A DNA stretch of 64,000 nt from a phage, in the sequence record NC_101835.1; one strand, written 5' to 3'. Below are positions 31,739 through 43,026 of this stretch, piece after piece. A program made the position numbers and the translations under genes. How positions within the stretch are numbered: the stretch's first letter is position 1; every line of letters starts with the position of its first letter. Under the pieces are notes generated by a model, which worked only from the letters and a program-made list of their open reading frames with translations, did no database searches and was not told where the DNA came from.

Positions 31739-32017
31739 ATGAGCTGTGAAAAATCTTTTTTCTTTATTATTTACGGTAAAGATAACTGCCCACATTGTGT
31801 AAGAGCAAAAGAATTTGCAGTCAGTAAGGGTCTGCCTTTTGTATATAAGACACTTGGCGAGGGTTACACAAAAGAAGAGCTTATTGAGAAGTGCAGTCCA
31901 ATCGTACCCAGAACGTTGCCGCAGATCTTCTTAGAAAGTAATCTTGAAAGTGTCCATATAGGCGGTGCCGACGATTTCATCTCTTTTGTTAAGAATGGTT
32001 TTGGAGAGAAAAAGTGA
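31739..32017 (+). CDS. nrdC: glutaredoxin/thioredoxin (T4 NrdC-like)
   Basis: CPHC active site; C-terminal PQIF...HIGGADDF resembles T4 NrdC. Confidence 0.65.
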   Translation: MSCEKSFFFIIYGKDNCPHCVRAKEFAVSKGLPFVYKTLGEGYTKEELIEKCSPIVPRTLPQIFLESNLESVHIGGADDFISFVKNGFGEKK

Positions 32018-32874
32018 AAGTTGTAAAACGGGACGGTAGAGAAGAGGTCTATAACGGAATTAAGGTGATCAAGGCGGCAGAGTCCGCCTTACTTGAGTCT
32101 GGACATACTGAAGAAGAAGCTTACCGGATCGCCTGCGCGGTTAATGAAGTTGTTGCTAACAATCTACCAACCGACCAGTGCACGATCTCTGTAAAAAATA
32201 TCCATATCCTTGTTGAAGACGCTCTTATGGATATGGGTTTAAAATGTGCAGCCAGAGAATACATCCAGTATAGGCAGACAAGAGATAATAACAGAGAGGC
32301 AGGTGGAAAACTGCTTGCAGATATTAGTGGCTTCTTGGATCGCACTTGTGATGAATTTACAAAAGAAAACGCAAATAAGCCTACCAATCATGTACACACT
32401 CATCGTGACCTGCTTGCAGGCATCCTTAGCAAACACCTTGCATCAACACAGATCCTGCCAGACCGTGTCTCAGAAGAGCACAATAGAGGCTTCATCCATG
32501 TGCATGATCTTGACTACTTGATCAGTCCGTTAACAAACTGTTGTTTGGTAAATTATCCAGATATGTTGGAAAACGGATTCAATATTGGTAACGCCCATGT
32601 CAGTAAGCCGAAGTCAATAGGGGTTGCAACAACAATCCTTAGCCAAATCTCTAGTGCGGTAGCTAGTGCTCAATATGGTGGTCAGACTATGAGCCATATT
32701 GATCATTATCTGGCACAGTATGCTGAAGCAACCTATGAGAAGAACCTTAAATTTTGCCAGGAACATTGGTTGCCAGATGCTGAGACTGTTGCAATGCAAA
32801 TGACAGATAAGGACGTGTTTGACAGCATGCAGACGTTGCTTTATCAGATCAACACACTAACCTCGGTAAACGGT
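32014..32874 (+). CDS. nrdD: anaerobic ribonucleotide reductase NrdD, exon 1
   Basis: ATP-cone then collinear with T4 NrdD (HVHDLDY, TNCCLV, ENGFNIGNAHVSKPKSIGVAT); ends NTLTSVNG at GGT|TAA. Confidence 0.8.
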
Positions 32875-33131
32875 TAACAAACTGGCCGTTTTAAAACTCT
32901 GCTAACCTCAGTATGAGGGGTCAGCTGATCGCTGGCTAACGGGGAACGCTAAGGCGAAAGCTATGCCAATCCCGTGACTAGCTTCACAAGGAGTGAGGCG
33001 GTTGTAACGACTAACCTTTTGGTGTAGGGATTATGGAAGATTCCGAAACGCAGAGGTCTGATTAATAATCACACGGTGTGATTTCAGGCAAGAGATAGTC
33101 TGGCCTTGTGGAAACATAAGGGTGGGGACCG
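32875..33131 (+). mobile_element. group I intron 1 in nrdD (ORF-less, ~257 nt)
   Basis: Exon end AAACGGT pairs with intron GCCGUUU (P1 with U-G at splice site); intron ends in G before CAA encoding QTPF, restoring T4-like NrdD sequence. Confidence 0.6.
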
Positions 33132-33431: not shown

Positions 33432-34193
33432 AAACTATAACTGCTCATGTAAAATCTATCTAAACGGGGAAACTCCAGAACGGACAATCCCGTGCTAAAC
33501 GTAACAGAACTCCTGACCAAGAGGAGTCCTGAAATGAGAAAACAAATTCGTGATTTTGAAGGTTATGAAATTGACGAGATGGGCAATGTTTATTGCACCC
33601 GCTACGAAAATGAAAGAATTATTCATTCGTGGGAAGAGATAAACACAGGTTACCGTCTTGTTAGGATACGCAAGAACAAAAAGACTGTTTGCCTAAGGGT
33701 TCACAGACTTGTTGCTGAAGCGTTCTTACCAAATCCAGACAATTTACCCTATGTTAAGCACAAAGGGGACAACAGGAAAGATAACAGTGTATACAACCTT
33801 GAGTGGGGAGCTTGCCCAGACAATACGCAAGAAGGATACAACAACAACTGTTATGCTTTTTACACAAGATGCCACGGTGTGAAAGCCACCAACAAATTAA
33901 CTGGTGAGGTTTTCCACTTTAAAAGTCTGAGATGTTGTGCTGATGTTTTAGGAGTGGATAGAAAAAGAATATCTGCTATCCTGAAACGTGGTGCGCCTAA
34001 TAACTATGATTACGAGTTCTGTTACGAAATGCCTAACGACTAACCGTGATGAATGTAGCGGTGTAGGGTGTAAGCCGATGACACTCGAAATGGTAGACAC
34101 ACTAAGTGTGAAGATATAGTCTGATCTGCATGGGAACATGCAGCAGCACGTAAAGGTGCGGGGGTGGACTTGCGAACCACCCTGAACATAATG
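33432..34193 (+). mobile_element. group I intron 2 in nrdD, carrying HNH homing endonuclease ORF
   Basis: Exon end CATGGGT pairs with intron GCTCATG (P1); intron ends in G before TGT encoding CRSF, matching T4 SPMGCRSF. Confidence 0.6.
33492..34043 (+). CDS. HNH homing endonuclease (intron-encoded)
   Basis: GYEIDEMGNVY...HRLVAEAFLPNP...KHKGDNRKDNSVYNLEWG, typical phage HNH family. Confidence 0.7.
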   Translation: MLNVTELLTKRSPEMRKQIRDFEGYEIDEMGNVYCTRYENERIIHSWEEINTGYRLVRIRKNKKTVCLRVHRLVAEAFLPNPDNLPYVKHKGDNRKDNSVYNLEWGACPDNTQEGYNNNCYAFYTRCHGVKATNKLTGEVFHFKSLRCCADVLGVDRKRISAILKRGAPNNYDYEFCYEMPND

Positions 34194-35171
34194 TGTAGAA
34201 GTTTCTTATCGAAATATAGCGACCCTGTAACAGGCGAGGAGAAATACCTTGGCAGATTTAACTTAGGCGTTGTTAGCATTAACCTGCCAATGATTGCGGC
34301 AAAAGCTAAAACGGAAGGTGTTGATTTCTTTGCAGTTCTTGACGAATACCTGGATCTTGCATACGAGGCTCACCTTGTAAGGGTTAATCGTCTAAAAGGG
34401 GCAAAGGCAGGGCAGAACCCTATCATGTGGTGTGAAGGCGCTCTTGCTCGCCTGGATCCTGAAGAGAGTATTGATAAACTCTTCTATGACGGGTACGCTT
34501 CCATCAGTATTGGGTATATTGGTGTGTATGAAACCTGTCAGATTTTGGGCAGAGAGGGTGACAAGGCTTTAGCTCTTGGAATCCTTCAGCACATGAGAGA
34601 TGCTTGTGAGAGATACAAGAAGGAAAGTAGACTAGCGTTTAGCTTGTACGGCACCCCTTCTGAGAGTCTATGCTATAAAGCTGCAACCTGTCTGGATCGT
34701 GAATATCCTGAAGTGTTGAAGCACGAGCATGAATATCTCACCAACAGTTTCCATCAGCCAGTATGGATCAATAGCTCTCCTTTTGATAAGTGGAAGTATG
34801 AGGAAGGTTTTGCTATGATCTCCTCTGGTGGCAACATCGGATACGTAGAGACACCAAATCTGAAAAACAACTTAGATGCTTTGGAAGCTCTTGTTGATTT
34901 CGGATATAAACACATTATGTATTTTGGTATCAACCAGCCTGTGGATAAATGTCTTAAGTGTGGTTTCTCTGGTGAGTTCAGTGCAACAGCTAAAGGGTTC
35001 TGCTGCCCTGCGTGCGGATGCCACGATGAACAATATATCTCAGTGATCCGAAGAGTGTCTGGCTATCTCTCCAGCCCGAACAGTAGACCGTATAACACAG
35101 GTAAACAAGCAGAGGTTATCGAACGTGTTAAACATGTTGGGAATGTAGACTGGTGTCCGTTGAGTAAATAA
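34194..35171 (+). CDS. nrdD: NrdD, exon 3 (glycyl-radical C-terminus)
   Basis: CRSFLS...NLGVVSINLP, zinc ribbon CLKCG...CPACGC, glycyl radical motif RVSGYL. Confidence 0.8.
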   Translation, partial: CRSFLSKYSDPVTGEEKYLGRFNLGVVSINLPMIAAKAKTEGVDFFAVLDEYLDLAYEAHLVRVNRLKGAKAGQNPIMWCEGALARLDPEESIDKLFYDGYASISIGYIGVYETCQILGREGDKALALGILQHMRDACERYKKESRLAFSLYGTPSESLCYKAATCLDREYPEVLKHEHEYLTNSFHQPVWINSSPFDKWKYEEGFAMISSGGNIGYVETPNLKNNLDALEALVDFGYKHIMYFGINQPVDKCLKCGFSGEFSATAKGFCCPACGCHDEQYISVIRRVSGYLSSPNSRPYNTGKQAEVIERVKHVGNVDWCPLSK

Positions 35172-35280: not shown

Positions 35281-36213
35281 ATGAGGAGACTAACAACCGA
35301 AGAGTTTATAGAAAAAGCTCAGACTATACATGGTGACAAATATGATTACTTCAAAGTGGAGTATAAAAACAACAAGACACCTGTGTGTATAATTTGTCCT
35401 GAGCACGGTGAGTTCTGGCAAACCCCTGTGGCACATGCTTTCAAGAAGCATGGTTGTCCAAGGTGTGGTGGGTCAGCGAAAAAGAACACTGAAGAGTTCA
35501 TAAAAGAGGCTATGGTTGTTCATGGGGACAAGTACGATTACTCATTAGTCAAATATGCGAACATGAGAACGCCTGTAAAAATTGTTTGCCCTGAACACGG
35601 TGTGTTTGAACAATACCCTGAAAACCACTTATACCAAAGAAACGGCTGCCCAGAGTGCTATGACTTAAGACGTGGGCAAAGTCAAGCGTTAACCCATAAG
35701 GAGCATGCTGCAATTATCCACAAAGCCAACCCAGACATAGAAATATTAGAGAAAATTGCCAATGATAACACAAAAGTGCAATGTAGGTGCAAAATTTGTG
35801 GGTATAAGTGGTCTGCTAAACCTAATAACCTAAAAAGTGGTCGTGGCTGCTGTAAATGCGCACAAAATGGATTCTTATCTCATGAGTACGGTAAACTCTA
35901 CATTATGGTTGATGACTTAGAAGTGCCAACACTTATGAAAATCGGTGTATGCGTTAAAATGCACAGGAGGAAAAATGAGGTGCTTAACAGTGCTCGTAAA
36001 TCTGGCGCAGGTGTCCACACTCTTCACGTAGTAAAAACGTGGAGCGGATCAACTCAAAACATGGTAGACTTAGAAAAATCTGTGCATAAGGCCTTCAGCA
36101 AGTATAAAATAAACTTTCCTGTAAAATTTGACGGTAGCACTGAGTTTTTCTACTACAGGCCTGAAGTGTTTGACACGGTAGAAGAGGTATACAAGAAGAT
36201 TTGTGGTAAATGA
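35281..36213 (+). CDS. free-standing homing-endonuclease-like protein: 3 zinc-ribbon repeats plus C-terminal T5orf172 (GIY-YIG-like) domain
   Basis: Three ~60-aa repeats (HGDKYDY...CPEHG...GCPxC) and C-terminal T5orf172-like domain (EFFYY). Confidence 0.5.
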   Translation: MRRLTTEEFIEKAQTIHGDKYDYFKVEYKNNKTPVCIICPEHGEFWQTPVAHAFKKHGCPRCGGSAKKNTEEFIKEAMVVHGDKYDYSLVKYANMRTPVKIVCPEHGVFEQYPENHLYQRNGCPECYDLRRGQSQALTHKEHAAIIHKANPDIEILEKIANDNTKVQCRCKICGYKWSAKPNNLKSGRGCCKCAQNGFLSHEYGKLYIMVDDLEVPTLMKIGVCVKMHRRKNEVLNSARKSGAGVHTLHVVKTWSGSTQNMVDLEKSVHKAFSKYKINFPVKFDGSTEFFYYRPEVFDTVEEVYKKICGK

Positions 36214-36916: not shown

Positions 36917-37030
36917 ATGGCTAAAAAAGCCTTGAAGAAGGCGTACAAGAAAGAGATTGCGCTTGAGCTTAAGAAAAAACACAAGCGTGAAAAGAAACAT
37001 CATGAAGATGAAGAGGGGGTGCAACAGTGA
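36917..37030 (+). CDS. small lysine-rich protein (37 aa)
   Basis: GAGGAGG RBS; below ORF-track cutoff. Confidence 0.3.
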   Translation: MAKKALKKAYKKEIALELKKKHKREKKHHEDEEGVQQ

Positions 37031-37377
37031 CACAAGAACGTATCGATTTGGCTAATAAGTTTGTAGATCTCATTTTGCCACGGTTAGTTACTCAACATGC
37101 AGATGCTATTTCTACTAATCTTGATGGCTTACGTCTAATGCTGAATCGCACAGATGACCCTCGTATTCGGGCTGATTTAGAAGCCTCTGCCAACAAACTG
37201 GAAAAGTTCTTGCAAGTAGGTACGCAAGAAGCCTTACACAAGATTATGGTGGAAGGTTTCTCTAAAGAATTTACCATTAAAGAGCTTAAGGAGCTGATCC
37301 ACCAAGAAGAGATGAATATCCGAGTTCAGGCTGTTGCAAGCAGCATGGAAGCGGCTATTGAAAAACTGTTGCAGTAA
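37027..37377 (+). CDS. hypothetical protein (116 aa)
   Basis: Translationally coupled ORF. Confidence 0.4.
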   Translation: MTQERIDLANKFVDLILPRLVTQHADAISTNLDGLRLMLNRTDDPRIRADLEASANKLEKFLQVGTQEALHKIMVEGFSKEFTIKELKELIHQEEMNIRVQAVASSMEAAIEKLLQ

Positions 37378-37415
37378 AAGTTCCAGACACATCTCAATCT
37401 GAAAGGAGTCCCAAC

Positions 37416-38210
37416 ATGGGTCGAGCTAAAGAAACAAAACGCATGCGTGATGAAGCTAAAGAGGCTCGCAAATCTGATCGCCTGCGTAAAGCTGCTGAGA
37501 AATTTGCTGAAGAACGAGAGCACACAGCTCCAGCTCTCCGACCGATGAATAAAAAACAAGAGTATTATCTCCACCTTCTTAAAACTAAACAGTTAGTGAT
37601 CGCAACAGGGCTGTTTGGCACAGGCAAGTCGTTTATGGCTGCAGCTTATGCTGCAGACCTGCTTCGTAAGAACGAGATTGATAGAATTATTGTTTGCCGC
37701 CCAAATGTTGAATGTGGAAGCCATGGCACGGGGTTCAAACCTGGAGGTGTATTACAGAAAAACGAACCTTTCTTAAAATCAATTTTAGAAACTCTCAAAA
37801 AACGACTCGGACCTGGTGCTTATAGTACGTTATTGGGAGACGGTCAGACTGGGCGCATCGAGGTGCAAGAGGTTGCAACAATCCGAGGTCGAGATTTCTC
37901 TGATCGTTGCATCATCCTAGTTGATGAGTTTCAGTTGACAACCTGTGCAGAGGCTTTGGCAATTGCCACACGGCTTGGTGAGCATGCACAAATGATTTGC
38001 ATGGGAGACTTACGACAGAACGATCTCAAAGGCACCTCAGGACTTCAGTGGCTGATCGACTTTGTAACGAGGCACGAAATCAACGGTGTTGGTATCGTAG
38101 ATTTTGACGAGCCAGAAGATGTGGTTCGCTCAGGTATTGGTAGACTGTTTGCACTAGGCCTTATGACTGACCGTAATAAAGGTGTGTGGACCCCTGAGGC
38201 AGGTTTATAA
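37416..38210 (+). CDS. phoH: PhoH-like ATPase
   Basis: Walker A GLFGTGKS, Walker B ILVDEFQ. Confidence 0.8.
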   Translation: MGRAKETKRMRDEAKEARKSDRLRKAAEKFAEEREHTAPALRPMNKKQEYYLHLLKTKQLVIATGLFGTGKSFMAAAYAADLLRKNEIDRIIVCRPNVECGSHGTGFKPGGVLQKNEPFLKSILETLKKRLGPGAYSTLLGDGQTGRIEVQEVATIRGRDFSDRCIILVDEFQLTTCAEALAIATRLGEHAQMICMGDLRQNDLKGTSGLQWLIDFVTRHEINGVGIVDFDEPEDVVRSGIGRLFALGLMTDRNKGVWTPEAGL

Positions 38211-38251
38211 TATATAGGAGAGAGGGTGATATTATTCACCCTCTATTTAAG

Positions 38252-39181
38252 ATGCGTTTAGGAGAACAGTTATCACGAGAAGAAGTGTTTATCAAGAAAG
38301 CTACTGATAAGCATGGTGACAAGTATGATTACTCCAAAGTTGTATACAAAAACAACACAACACCTGTGAATATAGTGTGCAACAAGTGTGGTACAGTTTT
38401 TAGTAAAACTCCTAAGTCTCACCTTATAGGCGCAGGATGCCCAGATTGTAAGAACAGGGAGTTAAGTGAGAGATTCCGAATGTCTAAGGAGGAGTTTGTA
38501 AAAAGGGCAACAGAACTGCACAAGGGGAAGTATGACTACTCTCTTGTAAAAAGTTTTTCTAACAGGAACGACACTGTTACTATTATTTGCCCCATCCACG
38601 GAGAGTTCAAGCAGACAGTTGCAAATCATTTAGCTGGTGGGTGCTACAAGTGTGGAAAAAGAGCGACAGCTAAAAAGATGAGGAAGTCTAAAGATAGATT
38701 CATAGAGGATGCTACTCAACTACACGGAGACATATATGACTATTCAGAAGTGAAGTATGTGAATACCCACACTCCTGTAACCATTATCTGCAAGTCTTGC
38801 GGGTGTAAGTTTCTTCAACAGCCTGCAAACCACCTGTGCGGTAACGGTTGCCCAGAATGCTCTACTTCAGGATTCAGGCAGAGTACTAAAGAGAGCTGTC
38901 TGTACCTTCTTGTTGATGATCTTACCATTCCCACGGTTATAAAAGTTGGGGTGACTATCAATCTACAGAGCAGACTATACAACATAAGAAGGAACACAAA
39001 TTTTCCTGTTCACGTGCTTAAAGTATTTACTTTCGAGCAGGGGTGTGCTACCATGCAGCTTGAAAAATTGGTGCATAAAGTCTTTGCAGATCGCAACTGC
39101 CACTTCGAAGGTTTCGACGGGGCAACGGAGTGGTTCTGGTACTCTCATGATATTGTAGAGTTTCTAGAAGACAATTGTTGA
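38252..39181 (+). CDS. free-standing homing-endonuclease-like protein, paralog of 35281..36213
   Basis: Same architecture: three HGDKYDY/zinc-ribbon repeats and C-terminal T5orf172-like domain (EWFWY). Confidence 0.5.
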   Translation: MRLGEQLSREEVFIKKATDKHGDKYDYSKVVYKNNTTPVNIVCNKCGTVFSKTPKSHLIGAGCPDCKNRELSERFRMSKEEFVKRATELHKGKYDYSLVKSFSNRNDTVTIICPIHGEFKQTVANHLAGGCYKCGKRATAKKMRKSKDRFIEDATQLHGDIYDYSEVKYVNTHTPVTIICKSCGCKFLQQPANHLCGNGCPECSTSGFRQSTKESCLYLLVDDLTIPTVIKVGVTINLQSRLYNIRRNTNFPVHVLKVFTFEQGCATMQLEKLVHKVFADRNCHFEGFDGATEWFWYSHDIVEFLEDNC

Positions 39182-39236
39182 CAAACAGATAAGCTTTAGG
39201 TATTATTATCGGACAAAACAAGGAGAAGGAGATAGT

Positions 39237-39548
39237 ATGGCTACAATACAAGAGAGACTGAATAAAATATACTGCCTGTTTGTCTATAACGGCGAGACAA
39301 TTTTGGCAAATAAAGGATCCAAGAATGTGTGGATCAAGGACAGTGGTGGTAATATAATCAACTTAGCGTTGCTACGTGAGCGCCGACACAGATTCTTTAT
39401 CGAGTCTCGGATTATTGAAAGCAGCACCTGCTACAGAACAGGCGATAAAGTAATTGTTGACAATGATACGTGGTATGTGGTAGACTGGCAATCATTGAGC
39501 TGTGATGCTTCTGACAATCGTAAGTATTCCCTAGTGATTGCTAAATAA
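39237..39548 (+). CDS. hypothetical protein (103 aa)
   Basis: GGAG RBS. Confidence 0.35.
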   Translation: MATIQERLNKIYCLFVYNGETILANKGSKNVWIKDSGGNIINLALLRERRHRFFIESRIIESSTCYRTGDKVIVDNDTWYVVDWQSLSCDASDNRKYSLVIAK

Positions 39549-39608
39549 AGGTAAATGTGAATCAGTTTTAAATAAATAGCTTTCAACTTCCAATATTAAG
39601 GATTTCTC

Positions 39609-40658
39609 ATGAATTTAACACCTCGCAGCACCATGGTACACGGCATGAAAGAAAAACAGAACGGTTTCGAACCTATGAGTAATAAAATGTTTGGTATGCC
39701 GGGTGGTATTATGGAAACATACAGCTACCCAACACCTGTTGTTGACCACGTTCTTTATATCGACGATTTGGAAGACTTACAAGATCATATGTCTCGTCTG
39801 CAGACGATCCGTATGGCTCAGCCAGAAGAAAGTATCCGTGTAATCATTAACAGTCCTGGTGGTTGCGTTCACATTGCTATGGCGTATTTGCAGGCATTCC
39901 GCGAGTCTCAGGCAAGCGTTGTTGCACATGCTGAAGGGATGTGCTGCTCTGCTGGAACAATCTTATGGCTTGGTTGTAAAGAACGTACTGTGGCTCCGGA
40001 CACAGAGTTTATGTTCCACTACTATCAAGGTGGCACTTATGGTAACGGTGTGAACATGAATACTCAGGTCAGCTACTGGAAAAAACGTTTTGAACGCCTG
40101 ATCGAAAAATACTACGGTGGGGTGCTGACAGAAGATGAGATCGCATCCATCACAGCTGGTGGCGAAGTGTGGTTGGACGGAGAAGAGCTGGCAGCACGCA
40201 CTGGAGCTATTATTCTGGATGAAGGCAACATACAACGCATCCAGAACGGACAAAAACCGAAAAAGCTTCTGGCAAAAGGTGATGAAGAAGGCGTGTTAGG
40301 TGAAGCAGGTCTTCCGGAGATTCACCAGTGCACATCTTTAGATGAGTTAGTTCATGCTGTTGAATCTGCAAAAGCGGGTGGTTCGAAAGGTGATGTTCAC
40401 ACTGTGTTCCTGAATCTGCAGATGGAAAGTGGCGAGACCGTCAGAATTGCCCTGAGTGAGATTACTTCAGAAGATCTGCAGAGATTCTCTGTCGTTGAAC
40501 TTCAGGATATTCTGTCTCAATTGAAGACTACTCTGAACGGCGGTGAAGAGGTTAAGGTGAAAGATAAGACTCGCAAGCGTCTGGTGGACAATATTATTAA
40601 AACAGCAAAAGAGCTCAATGAAAAAATCCTGGGTGCAGGAATTGTCGAAGAAGCTTAA
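39609..40658 (+). CDS. ClpP-family (S14) serine protease-like protein with ~150-aa C-terminal extension
   Basis: IINSPGGCV, catalytic-Ser context GMCCSAGT, His in FMFHYY, as in ClpP. Confidence 0.6.
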   Translation: MNLTPRSTMVHGMKEKQNGFEPMSNKMFGMPGGIMETYSYPTPVVDHVLYIDDLEDLQDHMSRLQTIRMAQPEESIRVIINSPGGCVHIAMAYLQAFRESQASVVAHAEGMCCSAGTILWLGCKERTVAPDTEFMFHYYQGGTYGNGVNMNTQVSYWKKRFERLIEKYYGGVLTEDEIASITAGGEVWLDGEELAARTGAIILDEGNIQRIQNGQKPKKLLAKGDEEGVLGEAGLPEIHQCTSLDELVHAVESAKAGGSKGDVHTVFLNLQMESGETVRIALSEITSEDLQRFSVVELQDILSQLKTTLNGGEEVKVKDKTRKRLVDNIIKTAKELNEKILGAGIVEEA

Positions 40659-40669
40659 ACATTAATTCT

Positions 40670-40696
40670 AAAGCCCTCTTCGGAGGGCTTTTATGA
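40670..40696 (+). terminator. rho-independent terminator
   Basis: AAGCCCTC-ttcg-GAGGGCTT followed by TTTA. Confidence 0.5.
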
Positions 40697-40709
40697 TCTG
40701 GAGATTTGC

Positions 40710-41243
40710 ATGACTTGTGCTAGAAAACCTGATGAACAACGTAACGCCTACGATGAGTATGTGACACCGGAGTGGTGTGCAGAAGGGCTGTATGACCTTA
40801 TTCCGTTCCCAGAAGACTGGACCTACTTAGAGCCTTGCAGGAATAGTGCCTCAGGTGTGTTCTACTCCCGTATGCCGTTAGGATCTGCATGGGGAGAAAT
40901 ACAAGAAGGTGTTGACTATCTGAATACAGAATACAACCATGTTGACTGTATTATCACCAACCCACCATACAGCCTGGCTCGTGAGTTTGTAGACAAGGCG
41001 TTGAAAGATGCTGACGTAGTTATTATGCTTTTGCGTCTTAATTTTCTGGAAAGCAAAGCCAGATTTGAATGGTGGCTTGATAATGCACCTACTACTGTGA
41101 TCACAATATCTAAGCGTCCATCATTTCAATCAAACGGCAGAACTGACGGGCAAGCATATGCGTATTTTGTGTGGGATAAGAAAAACCGTTTAGACTTGCC
41201 GCCGTTTATGTGGTTGGCACCCCCAGAGGTAGACCTGAAATGA
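40710..41243 (+). CDS. small phage Dam-like DNA N6-adenine methyltransferase
   Basis: ~177 aa with ITNPPY motif. Confidence 0.55.
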   Translation: MTCARKPDEQRNAYDEYVTPEWCAEGLYDLIPFPEDWTYLEPCRNSASGVFYSRMPLGSAWGEIQEGVDYLNTEYNHVDCIITNPPYSLAREFVDKALKDADVVIMLLRLNFLESKARFEWWLDNAPTTVITISKRPSFQSNGRTDGQAYAYFVWDKKNRLDLPPFMWLAPPEVDLK

Positions 41244-41524
41244 AAATGAGTGCTAAGGACAAATTACACCAGCTAGCGCTAAAACGCCCTGTAACGCTCC
41301 CTGACGAGCTTAACTCCATTTATGATGCGATTGTAGGGGAGATACAAAATAAAGCGTTAGCAGGCTTTCTGGGGTGCGGATTTTCGATAAATCTACCCTC
41401 GCATCTCTCAGATTACTTCCCGCACATTGTTGGAGATTTAAGGGCAGGAGGTCTGCAGGTAGATGTTGTTGGCATCTCCCCAGAGAAAAATAATACGGTT
41501 GCCTACTTGACAGTAACCTGGTAG
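41210..41524 (+). CDS. hypothetical protein (104 aa)
   Basis: ORF in co-directional block. Confidence 0.3.
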   Translation: MVGTPRGRPEMKMSAKDKLHQLALKRPVTLPDELNSIYDAIVGEIQNKALAGFLGCGFSINLPSHLSDYFPHIVGDLRAGGLQVDVVGISPEKNNTVAYLTVTW

Positions 41525-41800
41525 TTGTGTATTGTTGTTTTCAACAAGAGGGGGTCATTTATGTACAAGTCATTTTCAATCTACTCAAGACAGGCGAAAC
41601 ACTACACAGAGATCCTGATCACTCAGAAAAAATCTGTGGAAGGTGAGTGGGAATATCACCATAAAATGTTGCGTCCAGACTGGGTTTTTGATAGACTTAT
41701 TGCTATGATCCCTCTCGGAGAAGTATACCCTCTGACAGCCCATCGCGATGCTTGGGATTTAATTGATTACATAGATTCATTTAAGGAGCCTAGATTATGA
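41525..41800 (+). CDS. hypothetical protein (91 aa)
   Basis: ORF in co-directional block; start may be internal. Confidence 0.3.
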   Translation: MCIVVFNKRGSFMYKSFSIYSRQAKHYTEILITQKKSVEGEWEYHHKMLRPDWVFDRLIAMIPLGEVYPLTAHRDAWDLIDYIDSFKEPRL

Positions 41801-42195
41801 AGATTGAGATTACTAAAGAAGGTAAGAAAGTGTCCGGCAACTATGCAACAGTAATTCGGGATTTAATGTTTGAAGCCACCAAGATCGGTACATCTAAAGT
41901 TGGTCAAACTGTTAGTGTGAAAAGTAATATCTCCACAGGAGAGAAGGTATTCATTGTGGTCAAAGGGCAGGATCCCGTGGAAGGAACAGTGGGCCGAGGT
42001 GGCTACCTGTGCATTTCTGAAGAGCCGCGTATGTTAGTGGCTGACGCTACTATGGGTGGGAAACGTGTGTGCGAGGCGGATGAGGTAATGATTATCCAAC
42101 CTGTTGATCCAGATGACCCAGCAACTTGGGTGGTAGGAAATGAAATCTTCTCTTTAGAAGAGTTATCCTTCCCAGCACCGCGCTCTGTTCAGTAA
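41797..42195 (+). CDS. hypothetical protein (132 aa), possibly distant member of small-protein family A
   Basis: Translationally coupled; VFIVVKG element. Confidence 0.35.
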   Translation: MKIEITKEGKKVSGNYATVIRDLMFEATKIGTSKVGQTVSVKSNISTGEKVFIVVKGQDPVEGTVGRGGYLCISEEPRMLVADATMGGKRVCEADEVMIIQPVDPDDPATWVVGNEIFSLEELSFPAPRSVQ

Positions 42196-42232
42196 TAATT
42201 TATCTTACCAGGGACGGTAGGTAGGAGGTAGC

Positions 42233-42466
42233 ATGAAAGTTAAATTTCTTACAGATTTAGGGTACCCTTCCTTGGTTGACTGTGTTGGTAAAATTGTGGA
42301 AGCAAAACGGCTATCTGCAAACGAGAATGTTGTCCTGGTTAAAGGGAAGGATTTACTAGCTGCAGGTGCAGAGTCTGGCAGGATCTCTCCTGATTATATG
42401 TATTACCTATCTTTAAGTAATCTGCCAGAGCGAGGCGGTAAAGGCCTTGAAGTTGTGGAGGAGTGA
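42233..42466 (+). CDS. small acidic protein, paralog family A
   Basis: MKVKFL..., VLVKGKDLLAAGA, C-terminal EVVEE. Confidence 0.4.
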   Translation: MKVKFLTDLGYPSLVDCVGKIVEAKRLSANENVVLVKGKDLLAAGAESGRISPDYMYYLSLSNLPERGGKGLEVVEE

Positions 42467-42996
42467 CAGGTATGCTTCTGATTAACTGGGAAGACCTCTA
42501 TGGGGACAAAGACCCTGTTGCGTTTGTTGATCGTAGGTGGAGATACACTGAAGAACAACTGGCGGCAAAAAATTTAACTGCAAAACGCAGAAAGATCATC
42601 CAGTGCAAGTACAAATACGCACAGTTTGCTGCAAAAGTGTCTCCACAAATCGAGAGCTTTGTGCTTAAATTGTATGACGAGTACCTCAAATTCAAATTGG
42701 ATTTTGTGCAGGTGTACCGTGCACAGGTACGACCAGATACCAACATATGTAGATGGAAGGTTGTTTGTGAAGGTAAAGATTTGCCGCTCAGCTTGACAAT
42801 TGAGTGGCGTTATGGGTATCATGAGTGTGGTCTGTATGATATTTGGGATGTCATTGTAGATCCTGCTAAGCATCTGAACACAGAGGAGCTGGAATATATC
42901 AATAAGGTTATTCTCGATATGTTTTTCAGCTACACACATGAAAACTCTGAGAAAGAACGGGATAATTTTCTTGACACCCTCAGCGACCATTTGTAG
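42463..42996 (+). CDS. hypothetical protein (177 aa)
   Basis: Translationally coupled ORF. Confidence 0.4.
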   Translation: MTGMLLINWEDLYGDKDPVAFVDRRWRYTEEQLAAKNLTAKRRKIIQCKYKYAQFAAKVSPQIESFVLKLYDEYLKFKLDFVQVYRAQVRPDTNICRWKVVCEGKDLPLSLTIEWRYGYHECGLYDIWDVIVDPAKHLNTEELEYINKVILDMFFSYTHENSEKERDNFLDTLSDHL

Positions 42997-43026
42997 TATA
43001 CAATTTAACCTACAAAGGGAGGACCA

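What the first reader, a model, noticed from the sequence alone, without database searches (positions are those of the whole stretch)
39609..40658. ClpP-family protease encoded far from the head module
The protein has ClpP-like motifs (INSPGG, GMCCSAGT, His context) and a ~150-aa C-terminal extension, but lies among nucleotide-metabolism genes with its own terminator, not in the head gene cluster at 1-4400. It may be a displaced prohead protease or a protease acting on host or defence proteins.
Basis: partly seen in the sequence, partly recalled or inferred. Interest (0 to 1): 0.5.

Follow-up and report, generated by a model that had tools for sequence, protein, structure and literature searches.

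The report
Non-structural ClpP-like protease of rV5-like phage
This is the already-annotated "ClpP protease subunit" gene of rV5-like E. coli phages: a divergent ClpP-fold serine protease in the DNA-metabolism gene block that is very unlikely to be the head-maturation protease, because the head module has its own, and whose real substrates remain untested.

Summary
A 349-aa ORF at 39609-40658 (+) has a ClpP-fold core (aa ~45-220), an invariant Ser114/His137 and a ~140-aa C-terminal extension. It lies about 35 kb from the head module, has its own promoter and is followed by a terminator hairpin.

The window is a Vequintavirus (99.9% identical to deposited phages). The protein is rV5 ORF122/gp117, annotated as a ClpP subunit in the rV5 genome record and its 2013 paper, so it is not new.

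"Displaced prohead protease" is not supported:
- The head module carries an XkdF-type Peptidase_S78_2 gene in the canonical slot after the portal gene. Its orthologues were found in W70 and CB7 virions.
- No peptide of the ClpP-like protein occurs in the rV5 virion MS data.
- The rV5 capsid protein keeps its N-terminus.
- In 12 phage lineages sampled, homologues always sit among DNA/nucleotide-metabolism genes, and in 7 of 12 just downstream of PhoH.

The "ATP-dependent" label is also doubtful. The ClpX/ClpA docking cleft is remodelled (Y60R, F82E, I90H, M92E, L48/F49 deleted). The protein scores 33 bits against a 308.6-bit cut-off for cellular ClpP.

Most likely it is an intracellular early/middle peptidase acting on host or phage proteins, with unknown substrates. 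Low novelty, modest interest.

The parts
39609..40658 (+). ClpP-like serine protease gene (349 aa), equivalent to rV5 ORF122/gp117. Regions: disordered N-terminus aa 1-41; ClpP-fold core aa ~45-220 (nt ~39741-40268) with Ser114, His137, Glu186 and oxyanion Gly85; disordered linker aa 223-238; C-terminal alpha/beta domain aa 240-343 (nt ~40326-40637).
   Evidence: (phrog_5410, full length, E=2e-155). rV5 annotation.
39178..39206 (+). Sigma-70-like promoter (TTGACA-17-TATTAT, 11 of 12 matches), 31 nt upstream of the 103-aa ORF. It is at the same position as promoter P121 annotated in rV5.
39237..39548 (+). 103-aa ORF of unknown function (phrog_5456), probably co-transcribed with the ClpP-like gene. 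It is conserved directly upstream only in close Vequintavirinae-like relatives.
40670..40691 (+). Intrinsic-terminator-like hairpin (9-bp stem, UUCG loop, -14.7 kcal/mol) with a U-rich tail, starting 12 nt after the stop codon.
   Evidence: Not listed by the consensus scan.
37416..38210 (+). PhoH-like P-loop ATPase, the recurrent upstream neighbour of the ClpP-like gene across lineages.
   Evidence: PF02562, E=1e-43. Linkage.
38252..39181 (+). T5orf172/GIY-YIG-type homing-endonuclease-like ORF inserted between PhoH and the promoter. It is absent from rV5 and most relatives.
   Evidence: (73% coverage in most relatives).
40710..41243 (+). DNA (adenine) methyltransferase-like gene (phrog_799), the conserved downstream neighbour across Vequintavirinae. 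A Dam gene sits in the same position in Barbavirus.
2318..2893 (-). Head-module protease candidate: XkdF-type Peptidase_S78_2, lying between the portal gene (2805-4361) and a scaffold-like or capsid-associated gene (1338-2318). The true start is uncertain: GTG at 2893, or ATG at 2749 or 2737.
   Evidence: PF14550, 62.5 bits against a cut-off of 24. Virion MS: the phrog_1530 orthologue in W70 and a 21-kDa protein annotated as prohead protease in the same post-portal slot in CB7.

Best explanation
The gene encodes a non-structural, probably catalytically active ClpP-fold serine peptidase. Its catalytic residues are Ser114 and His137, with Glu186 at the third triad position and Gly85 in the oxyanion hole.

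It appears to be transcribed with a 103-aa ORF from a host-type sigma-70 promoter and ends at its own terminator. It sits inside the replication and nucleotide-metabolism block of a Vequintavirus. The likely site of action is the cytoplasm of the infected cell, on host and/or phage proteins or peptides (host takeover, regulatory proteolysis or amino-acid recycling), not the procapsid. Head maturation is served by a separate XkdF-type protease in the head module.

The protein belongs to a phage-specific clade (phrog_5410/phrog_1827) that is widespread in virulent phages and often lies just downstream of PhoH. The cleft that binds the ClpX/ClpA IGF/IGL loops is remodelled and the N-terminal axial loops are not recognisable. 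It therefore probably does not dock host unfoldases in the canonical way. The lineage-specific C-terminal domain may provide gating, assembly or substrate recruitment.

Shown here: fold, catalytic residue conservation, gene context, existence of a separate head protease, and absence from virion MS. Inferred: expression timing, oligomeric state, independence from ClpX/ClpA, and substrates.
For: - Fold and family: PF00574 is above its gathering score. phrog_5410 matches over the full length at 2e-155 and phrog_1827 at 2.6e-40, both non-structural families. The AF2 core has pLDDT >90 and matches ClpP structures with TM ~0.7.
- Catalytic residues: Ser114, His137 and Gly85 are invariant in 14 diverse family members and in 25 closer ones.
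- Separate head protease: PF14550 at 2318-2893(-), next to the portal gene. The W70 phrog_1530 orthologue and a CB7 protein annotated as prohead protease in the same post-portal slot were found in virions, where no ClpP-like protein is listed.
- rV5 virion MS: 19 proteins detected and none of six ClpP-like peptide strings found. A capsid-protein peptide starts at residue 5.
- Context in 12 lineages is always DNA/nucleotide metabolism. This includes KVP40-like T4 relatives, which have gp21 as head protease (established knowledge).
- PhoH lies upstream in 15 of 16 IMG/VR loci with at least 37% identity.
- Transcription signals: promoter and terminator.
- Docking cleft: Y60R, F82E, I90H, M92E, L114A, L23P and L48/F49 deleted. 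The residue list was verified in bioRxiv 10.1101/2023.03.01.530711.
- Curated cut-offs: TIGR00493 scores 33 bits against a cut-off of 308.6.
Against: - No expression, activity or substrate data exist for this protein or any homologue in the searchable literature.
- Its best NCBIfam hit is the ClpP-related head-maturation domain (60 bits, versus 39 for cellular ClpP subfamilies). Protease-plus-C-terminal-domain architectures also occur in prohead proteases, so a morphogenetic role is not formally excluded.
- Prohead proteases are often lost from mature virions, so absence from virion MS is weak evidence.
- The third triad position varies among D, E and Q in the family.
- The docking-cleft argument rests on a ~20%-identity alignment, although that alignment is ungapped between invariant anchors. 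It also rests on a monomer model; no oligomer was modelled.
Confidence: 0.55

Rival explanations
1. It is a canonical ClpP proteolytic subunit, as annotated ("ATP-dependent protease subunit"). It would assemble into heptameric rings, alone or mixed with host ClpP, and be powered by host ClpX/ClpA to redirect host proteolysis during infection.
For: It has the ClpP fold and a Ser/His centre. The handle-region Gly-rich motif (G142, G145) is conserved. The idea that phages exploit host Clp systems is discussed in Iyer et al. 2021.
Against: - Eight of the 16 verified IGF/ADEP-site positions are no longer hydrophobic or are deleted: L23P, L48/F49 deleted, Y60R, F82E, I90H, M92E, L114A.
- There is no recognisable N-terminal axial loop, and aa 1-41 are modelled as disordered.
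- It lies far below the cellular ClpP curated cut-offs (33 against 308.6 bits).
Confidence: 0.15
2. It is a second or ancestral head-maturation protease with a scaffold-like C-terminal targeting domain, relocated away from the head genes.
For: Its best curated NCBIfam hit is Clp_rel_HeadMat (60.3 bits). It gives secondary PHROG hits to head-maturation proteases, with phrog_1684 covering aa 70-256. It has a C-terminal, partly helical extension.
Against: - The NCBIfam score is below the cut-off (120 bits).
- A dedicated XkdF-type protease sits in the head module, and its W70 orthologue and the CB7 post-portal protease were detected in virions.
- The protein is not among the proteins detected in rV5 virions, nor in the W70 and CB7 virion tables as read.
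- The capsid protein's N-terminus is intact.
- It is on the opposite strand, about 35 kb from the head genes, and has a sigma-70 promoter.
- Short family members lack the extension entirely.
- It is in a replication-type context in all 12 lineages sampled.
- The C-domain has no structural match to scaffolds.
Confidence: 0.1
3. It works together with the neighbouring PhoH-like ATPase as a phage-specific two-component machine. For example, PhoH could deliver or remodel ribonucleoprotein substrates for the peptidase. This would explain the conserved gene pair.
For: The order PhoH then ClpP-like, on the same strand, is seen in 7 of 12 lineages. The two genes overlap in Otagovirus and are 12 nt apart in Barbavirus. 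PhoH is upstream in 15 of 16 close IMG/VR loci. The canonical unfoldase docking site is lost.
Against: - The linked lineages share wider synteny (RNR, lysozyme, PhoH, ClpP, ligase), so linkage may simply be inherited.
- In Vequintavirus a promoter, a small ORF and here a homing endonuclease separate the two genes.
- Five of 12 lineages have the ClpP-like gene without an adjacent PhoH.
- PhoH is SF1-helicase-like, not an AAA+ unfoldase (PMC7824862). There is no precedent for such a pairing.
Confidence: 0.07
4. It is a catalytically dead ClpP-fold protein with a structural or regulatory role, for example as a decoy or inhibitor of host ClpP rings.
For: The third triad residue is not Asp and is Gln in several homologues.
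Against: The nucleophile Ser, the general base His and the oxyanion Gly are invariant across very divergent members (22-30% identity), which indicates selection for catalysis.
Confidence: 0.03

Closest known systems
rV5 ORF122/gp117 "ClpP (ATP-dependent) protease subunit" and its orthologues in Vequintavirinae (phrog_5410)
   Same: It is essentially the same protein: 349 aa and 95-100% identical in 118 deposited phage records. It has the same neighbours and the same promoter position.
   Different: Nothing substantive differs. This window additionally has a homing-endonuclease ORF inserted between PhoH and the promoter.
Short stand-alone phage ClpP-like proteases (phrog_1827), e.g. in Otagovirus, Pakpunavirus, T5-like Sugarlandvirus/Novosibvirus, N4-like Alteromonas phage and KVP40-like phages
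   Same: They share the ClpP-fold core, the invariant Ser/His, the altered docking-cleft positions and a location among DNA-metabolism genes.
   Different: They are 180-240 aa and lack the ~140-aa C-terminal domain. That domain is shared only with other Vequintavirinae, ICP1 gp211 and Vibrio phage F102.
Cellular ClpP (MEROPS S14; TIGR00493), e.g. E. coli ClpP
   Same: The fold matches (TM ~0.7), as do the Ser-His catalytic centre, the oxyanion Gly and the Gly-rich handle motif.
   Different: - About 20% identity, and 33 bits against a 308.6-bit cut-off.
- Asp171 is replaced by Glu186.
- The IGF/IGL-loop cleft is remodelled and the L48/F49 segment is deleted.
- There are no recognisable N-terminal axial loops.
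- It has an extra C-terminal domain.
ClpP-related phage head-maturation proteases (NCBIfam NF045542; phrog_94/133/1684/2976)
   Same: It has a ClpP-like protease domain that is not dependent on host unfoldase docking, a phage origin, and a slightly higher profile score than to cellular ClpP.
   Different: It is below the curated cut-off (60 against 120 bits), is not in a head module, and was not detected in virions. The phage also has a different head protease, of the XkdF/S78_2 type.

Membership tests
ClpP family (Pfam PF00574 / MEROPS S14) in the broad sense | Profile match above the curated gathering score | tested here: met
   PF00574 scores 47.7 bits against 20.2, E=2e-12, over aa 59-168.
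ClpP family (Pfam PF00574 / MEROPS S14) in the broad sense | ClpP/crotonase-like alpha/beta fold | tested here: met
   The AF2 core has pLDDT >90. The top Foldseek PDB hits are all ClpP, with TM ~0.64-0.74 normalised to the target.
ClpP family (Pfam PF00574 / MEROPS S14) in the broad sense | Ser-His-Asp catalytic triad | tested here: inconclusive
   Ser114 and His137 align with S97 and H122 and are invariant. D171 aligns with Glu186, and this position is D, E or Q across the family.
Bona fide cellular-type ATP-dependent ClpP (TIGR00493 equivalog) | Score above the equivalog cut-off | tested here: not met
   33.2 bits against 308.6. The best cellular subfamily, NF009205, scores 39.1 against 228.
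Bona fide cellular-type ATP-dependent ClpP (TIGR00493 equivalog) | Hydrophobic cleft that binds the IGF/IGL loops of ClpX/ClpA (and ADEPs) | tested here: not met
   Y60R, F82E, I90H, M92E, L114A and L23P, with L48/F49 deleted. The changes are conserved in the clade. The residue list is from bioRxiv 10.1101/2023.03.01.530711. This is alignment-based; no complex was modelled.
Bona fide cellular-type ATP-dependent ClpP (TIGR00493 equivalog) | N-terminal axial loops that gate the pore and contact the unfoldase | tested here: inconclusive
   No alignable counterpart was found. Residues 1-41 have pLDDT <50, but the FGxPG and YSYP motifs are conserved.
Bona fide cellular-type ATP-dependent ClpP (TIGR00493 equivalog) | Assembly into a heptameric or tetradecameric barrel | not testable with these tools
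   Only monomer prediction was available. The handle-region Gly motif is conserved.
ClpP-related head-maturation protease (NF045542) | Score above the curated cut-off | tested here: not met
   60.3 bits against 120.
ClpP-related head-maturation protease (NF045542) | Encoded in the head module, between the portal and the scaffold/major capsid genes | tested here: not met
   The gene is about 35 kb from the head module and on the opposite strand. That slot is occupied by a Peptidase_S78_2 gene. The context is non-structural in all 12 lineages sampled.
ClpP-related head-maturation protease (NF045542) | Processes capsid or scaffold proteins, and is present in procapsids | not testable with these tools
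   Only indirect evidence is available: it is absent from the rV5 virion MS, and the capsid protein's N-terminus is retained.
Phage non-structural ClpP-like proteases (phrog_5410 / phrog_1827) | Full-length profile match | tested here: met
   phrog_5410 at E=2e-155, aa 24-345 against profile positions 4-322 of 323. phrog_1827 at 2.6e-40.
Peptidase_S78_2 (XkdF-type) head protease, for the head-module gene at 2318-2893(-) | Profile match above the gathering score, in the canonical position after the portal gene | tested here: met
   PF14550 scores 62.5 bits against 24. The gene lies between the portal gene and the scaffold-like gene. The phrog_1530 orthologue was found in W70 virions, and a 21-kDa protein annotated as prohead protease in the same slot in CB7 virions.

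The most novel reading that the evidence does not exclude
The conserved PhoH then ClpP-like gene pair marks a functional partnership. It is seen in Vequintavirinae, ICP1, Vibrio phage F102, Otagovirus and Barbavirus, and the two genes overlap in Otagovirus. On this reading, a ClpP-fold peptidase that has lost the ClpX/ClpA docking cleft is coupled to the enigmatic phage PhoH ATPase. This would give phage PhoH, a widely used marker gene of unknown function, a testable role in targeted proteolysis during host takeover.
Probability: 0.07. Interest if true: 0.7.

Novelty: already known. Interest (0 to 1): 0.22.

Why it matters
As it stands this is a routine, long-annotated gene, and the main value of the work is corrective.

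1. It should not be read as a misplaced head protease.
2. The inherited label "ATP-dependent Clp protease proteolytic subunit" probably overstates what is known. The unfoldase-docking cleft is not conserved, and the protein fails the curated ClpP and head-maturation cut-offs.

Non-structural ClpP-like proteases are widespread in virulent phages and none appears to have been characterised. A substrate-trapping experiment in an easily handled coliphage would therefore fill a real, if modest, gap. The recurrent linkage to PhoH offers a cheap hypothesis about another uncharacterised phage gene.

Tried and rejected
- **Consensus terminator scan**. It listed no + strand site after the gene. Direct reading and folding showed the hairpin.
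- **rV5 "late" motif TggTAaAAtA**. It is enriched (21 sites against 6.7 expected) but occurs in both the head and replication regions. It looks like an extended -10 element, so it does not reveal expression timing.
- **rV5 "gp133", a predominant virion protein.** I checked whether it was the ClpP-like protein. It is a different 151-aa protein.
- **PADLOC.** No hit for the protease or for the 103-aa ORF.
- **The search for related loci with the diverse alignment A2.** It failed because no stretch was conserved enough. The A1-based scan recovered distant loci by the INSPGG pattern. These are a mixture of head-module and non-structural ClpP-likes, so they cannot serve as a clean background for PhoH linkage.
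- **Literature searches for experimental work on phage-encoded ClpP.** Nothing was found.
- **Not checked:** whether phage W70 itself encodes a ClpP-like homologue.

Full report
**Observation**

The ORF is exactly as described: 39609-40658 on the + strand, ATG start, 349 aa. An AAGGA ribosome-binding site lies 6 nt upstream.

Pfam CLP_protease matches above its gathering score (47.7 against 20.2 bits). An AlphaFold2 model built on 25 homologues has a confident core (aa ~45-220, pLDDT >90). Its best solved-structure matches are all ClpP (TM ~0.7, 18-22% identity).

E. coli ClpP aligns only to about residue 205. The remainder is a disordered linker (223-238) plus a separate alpha/beta domain (240-343). 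The "~150-aa extension" is therefore real.

The neighbours are confirmed as ThyX, NrdA, NrdB, a split NrdD, NrdG and PhoH. The head genes lie at about 1-5552 on the other strand.

The consensus scan listed no terminator. However, a 9-bp GC-rich UUCG hairpin with a U-rich tail lies at 40670-40691, starting 12 nt after the stop codon (-14.7 kcal/mol).

**Identity of the window**

The region is 99.9% identical to Escherichia phages phiWec191 and SophiaRose, and 95-99% identical to about 90 other Vequintavirus records. The protein is rV5 ORF122/gp117. It is annotated "ClpP (ATP-dependent) protease subunit" in the rV5 record and in the supplementary table of the 2013 rV5 paper (PMC3606486). By tblastn, 118 phage records carry it at 95% identity or more. 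PHROGs has a dedicated full-length family for it, phrog_5410 (E=2e-155). The gene and its family assignment are therefore already known.

**Is it a displaced prohead protease?**

Several lines of evidence say no.

- *A dedicated head protease exists.* The head module is arranged as TerL 4464-5552, portal 2805-4361, a 139-191-aa ORF at 2318-2893, a scaffold-like or capsid-associated protein at 1338-2318, a decoration protein at 942-1316, and the capsid protein running off the window. The ORF after the portal gene matches Peptidase_S78_2 (XkdF-type phage serine protease) at 62.5 bits against a cut-off of 24. This is the canonical position for a head-maturation protease.
- *That protease is found in virions.* In the related phage W70, the phrog_1530 orthologue of this ORF was detected by virion mass spectrometry. 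In CB7, a 21-kDa protein annotated as prohead protease, in the same slot after the portal, was detected. No ClpP-like protein is listed in either table.
- *The ClpP-like protein is not found in rV5 virions.* The rV5 data set contains 19 proteins, and none of six peptide strings from the ClpP-like protein occurs in it.
- *The capsid protein is not trimmed.* The rV5 capsid protein starts MITRKDEFGIV, and MS recovered the tryptic peptide beginning at residue 5. There is therefore no N-terminal capsid processing to attribute to any protease.
- *Homologues are never in head modules.* I sampled 12 lineages: Vequintavirus, Seunavirus, Certrevirus, ICP1, Vibrio phage F102, Otagovirus, Pakpunavirus, Barbavirus, an N4-like Alteromonas phage, two T5-like genera and a KVP40-like T4 relative. 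In all of them the gene lies among replication or nucleotide-metabolism genes.
- *Other phages also carry both kinds of protease.* According to their papers, the Barbavirus phages and phage P26059A each carry a separate peptidase as well: Barbavirus one listed between portal and major capsid protein, P26059A an XkdF-type serine protease.

Absence from mature virions is only weak evidence, because head proteases often leave the capsid. The combined picture nonetheless makes the morphogenetic reading unlikely (about 0.1).

**What kind of ClpP-like protein is it?**

Across 14 members with 22-62% identity, the nucleophile Ser114, the general base His137 and the oxyanion Gly85 are invariant. The position of Asp171 is Glu186 here, and D, E or Q elsewhere in the family. 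This pattern argues for an active serine peptidase.

The protein nevertheless falls far below the curated cut-offs of both relevant families:
- cellular ClpP (TIGR00493): 33 bits against 308.6;
- ClpP-related head-maturation domain (NF045542): 60 bits against 120.

I mapped the E. coli residues that form the ADEP and IGF/IGL-loop binding cleft, using the list verified in bioRxiv 10.1101/2023.03.01.530711. The mapping gives Y60R, F82E, I90H, M92E, L114A and L23P, plus a five-residue deletion that removes L48 and F49. These changes are conserved in the clade. The alignment is ungapped between the invariant INSPGG motif and the catalytic Ser, and it is anchored by P130 and H137.

The N-terminal axial-loop segment has no alignable counterpart and is modelled as disordered. 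Canonical docking of host ClpX or ClpA is therefore unlikely. The inherited "ATP-dependent" label is unsupported, although only biochemistry can settle this.

The C-terminal domain is shared by Vequintavirinae, ICP1 gp211 and Vibrio phage F102. It is absent from the 180-240-aa members. It has no informative structural relative.

**Local organisation**

A strong sigma-70-like promoter (TTGACA-17-TATTAT, 39178-39206) sits at the same position as promoter P121 annotated in rV5. It precedes a 103-aa ORF of unknown function (phrog_5456), then the ClpP-like gene, then the hairpin. This suggests a two-gene unit read by host RNA polymerase, consistent with early or middle expression. That timing is an inference; no transcriptome was found.

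The 103-aa ORF accompanies the protease only in close relatives. The downstream methyltransferase and a 104-aa ORF are conserved across Vequintavirinae.

**PhoH linkage**

A PhoH-like ATPase lies upstream on the same strand in 7 of the 12 lineages. In Otagovirus it overlaps the protease gene by 8 nt, and in Barbavirus the gap is 12 nt. It is also upstream in 15 of 16 IMG/VR loci with at least 37% identity.

Two points argue against reading this as functional coupling. The linked lineages share broader synteny (RNR, lysozyme, PhoH, ClpP, ligase), so common descent can explain the pattern. Five lineages also lack the linkage. I treat a functional PhoH-protease partnership as a low-probability (about 0.07) but interesting reading.

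More distant environmental ClpP-like genes, recovered by the INSPGG pattern, are a mixture. Some lie next to portal genes. More lie next to phosphoribosyltransferase, primase/helicase or thymidylate synthase genes. This shows that non-structural ClpP-likes are common in phages.

**Comparison with the literature**

Iyer et al. (PMC7824862) already noted that ClpP has a patchy distribution in jumbo phages and suggested deployment against the host. Other papers simply list it as an auxiliary gene or assume a prohead role. Four searches found no experimental characterisation.

**Verdict**

The best explanation (confidence about 0.55 for the whole statement, about 0.85 for "not the head protease") is a cytoplasmic, catalytically active ClpP-fold peptidase. 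It belongs to a phage-specific non-structural clade and is probably independent of canonical ClpX/ClpA docking.

Novelty: already known. Interest: low to modest (0.22). The interest comes mainly from the remodelled docking cleft and the PhoH linkage, which are cheap to test.

Noticed in passing
window 32014-32877 and 34164-35171 (+), with ORF 33492-34043 in between: The anaerobic ribonucleotide reductase gene nrdD is split into two ORFs: ATP-cone plus the N-terminal part of NRDD, and the C-terminal part of NRDD plus the glycyl-radical domain. They are separated by a ~1.3-kb insert carrying a 183-aa ORF. rV5 has a single 2124-bp nrdD. The insert is probably an intron or other mobile insertion.
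   Followed up: partly
window 35281-36213 and 38252-39181 (+): There are two paralogous homing-endonuclease-like ORFs (T5orf172 with DUF4379/DUF723 zinc fingers). The second is inserted between PhoH and the promoter of the ClpP unit. It is missing from rV5 and most relatives, which explains their 73% coverage.
   Followed up: partly
window 4464-5552 (-), 5660-6250 (-), 6466-6894 (-): The large terminase ORF matches only the C-terminal part of its PHROG profile (positions 285-621). An EndoVII-like ORF separates it from an upstream "DNA packaging protein" ORF. This fits the split or intron-containing terminase described in the rV5 paper.
   Followed up: no
window 37000-43000 compared with GenBank MG0656xx records: About 19 records named "Campylobacter phage" (host C. 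jejuni) are 98-99.9% identical to this E. coli Vequintavirus. The host labels look doubtful.
   Followed up: no
whole window; e.g. 2756-2765 (-), 4431-4440 (-), 39347-39356 (+): The motif TGGTAAAATA (up to 1 mismatch) occurs 21 times against 6.7 expected. It resembles an extended -10 element. It lies just upstream of the head protease and portal genes but is also spread through the replication region.
   Followed up: partly
window ~1-894 (-) (major capsid protein, runs off the window start); rV5 gp60: rV5 virion MS recovered the capsid-protein tryptic peptide starting at residue 5. The mature capsid protein therefore keeps its N-terminus, and the head-module protease must act on other proteins, for example the phrog_2970 protein encoded at 1338-2318(-), which is abundant in W70 virions.
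   Followed up: partly
window 37416-38210 and 39609-40658; loci L004-L007, L011, L093, L012-L027: A PhoH-like ATPase gene recurrently lies just upstream of the ClpP-like gene in several distantly related phage groups. The two genes overlap in Pseudomonas Otagovirus.
   Followed up: partly
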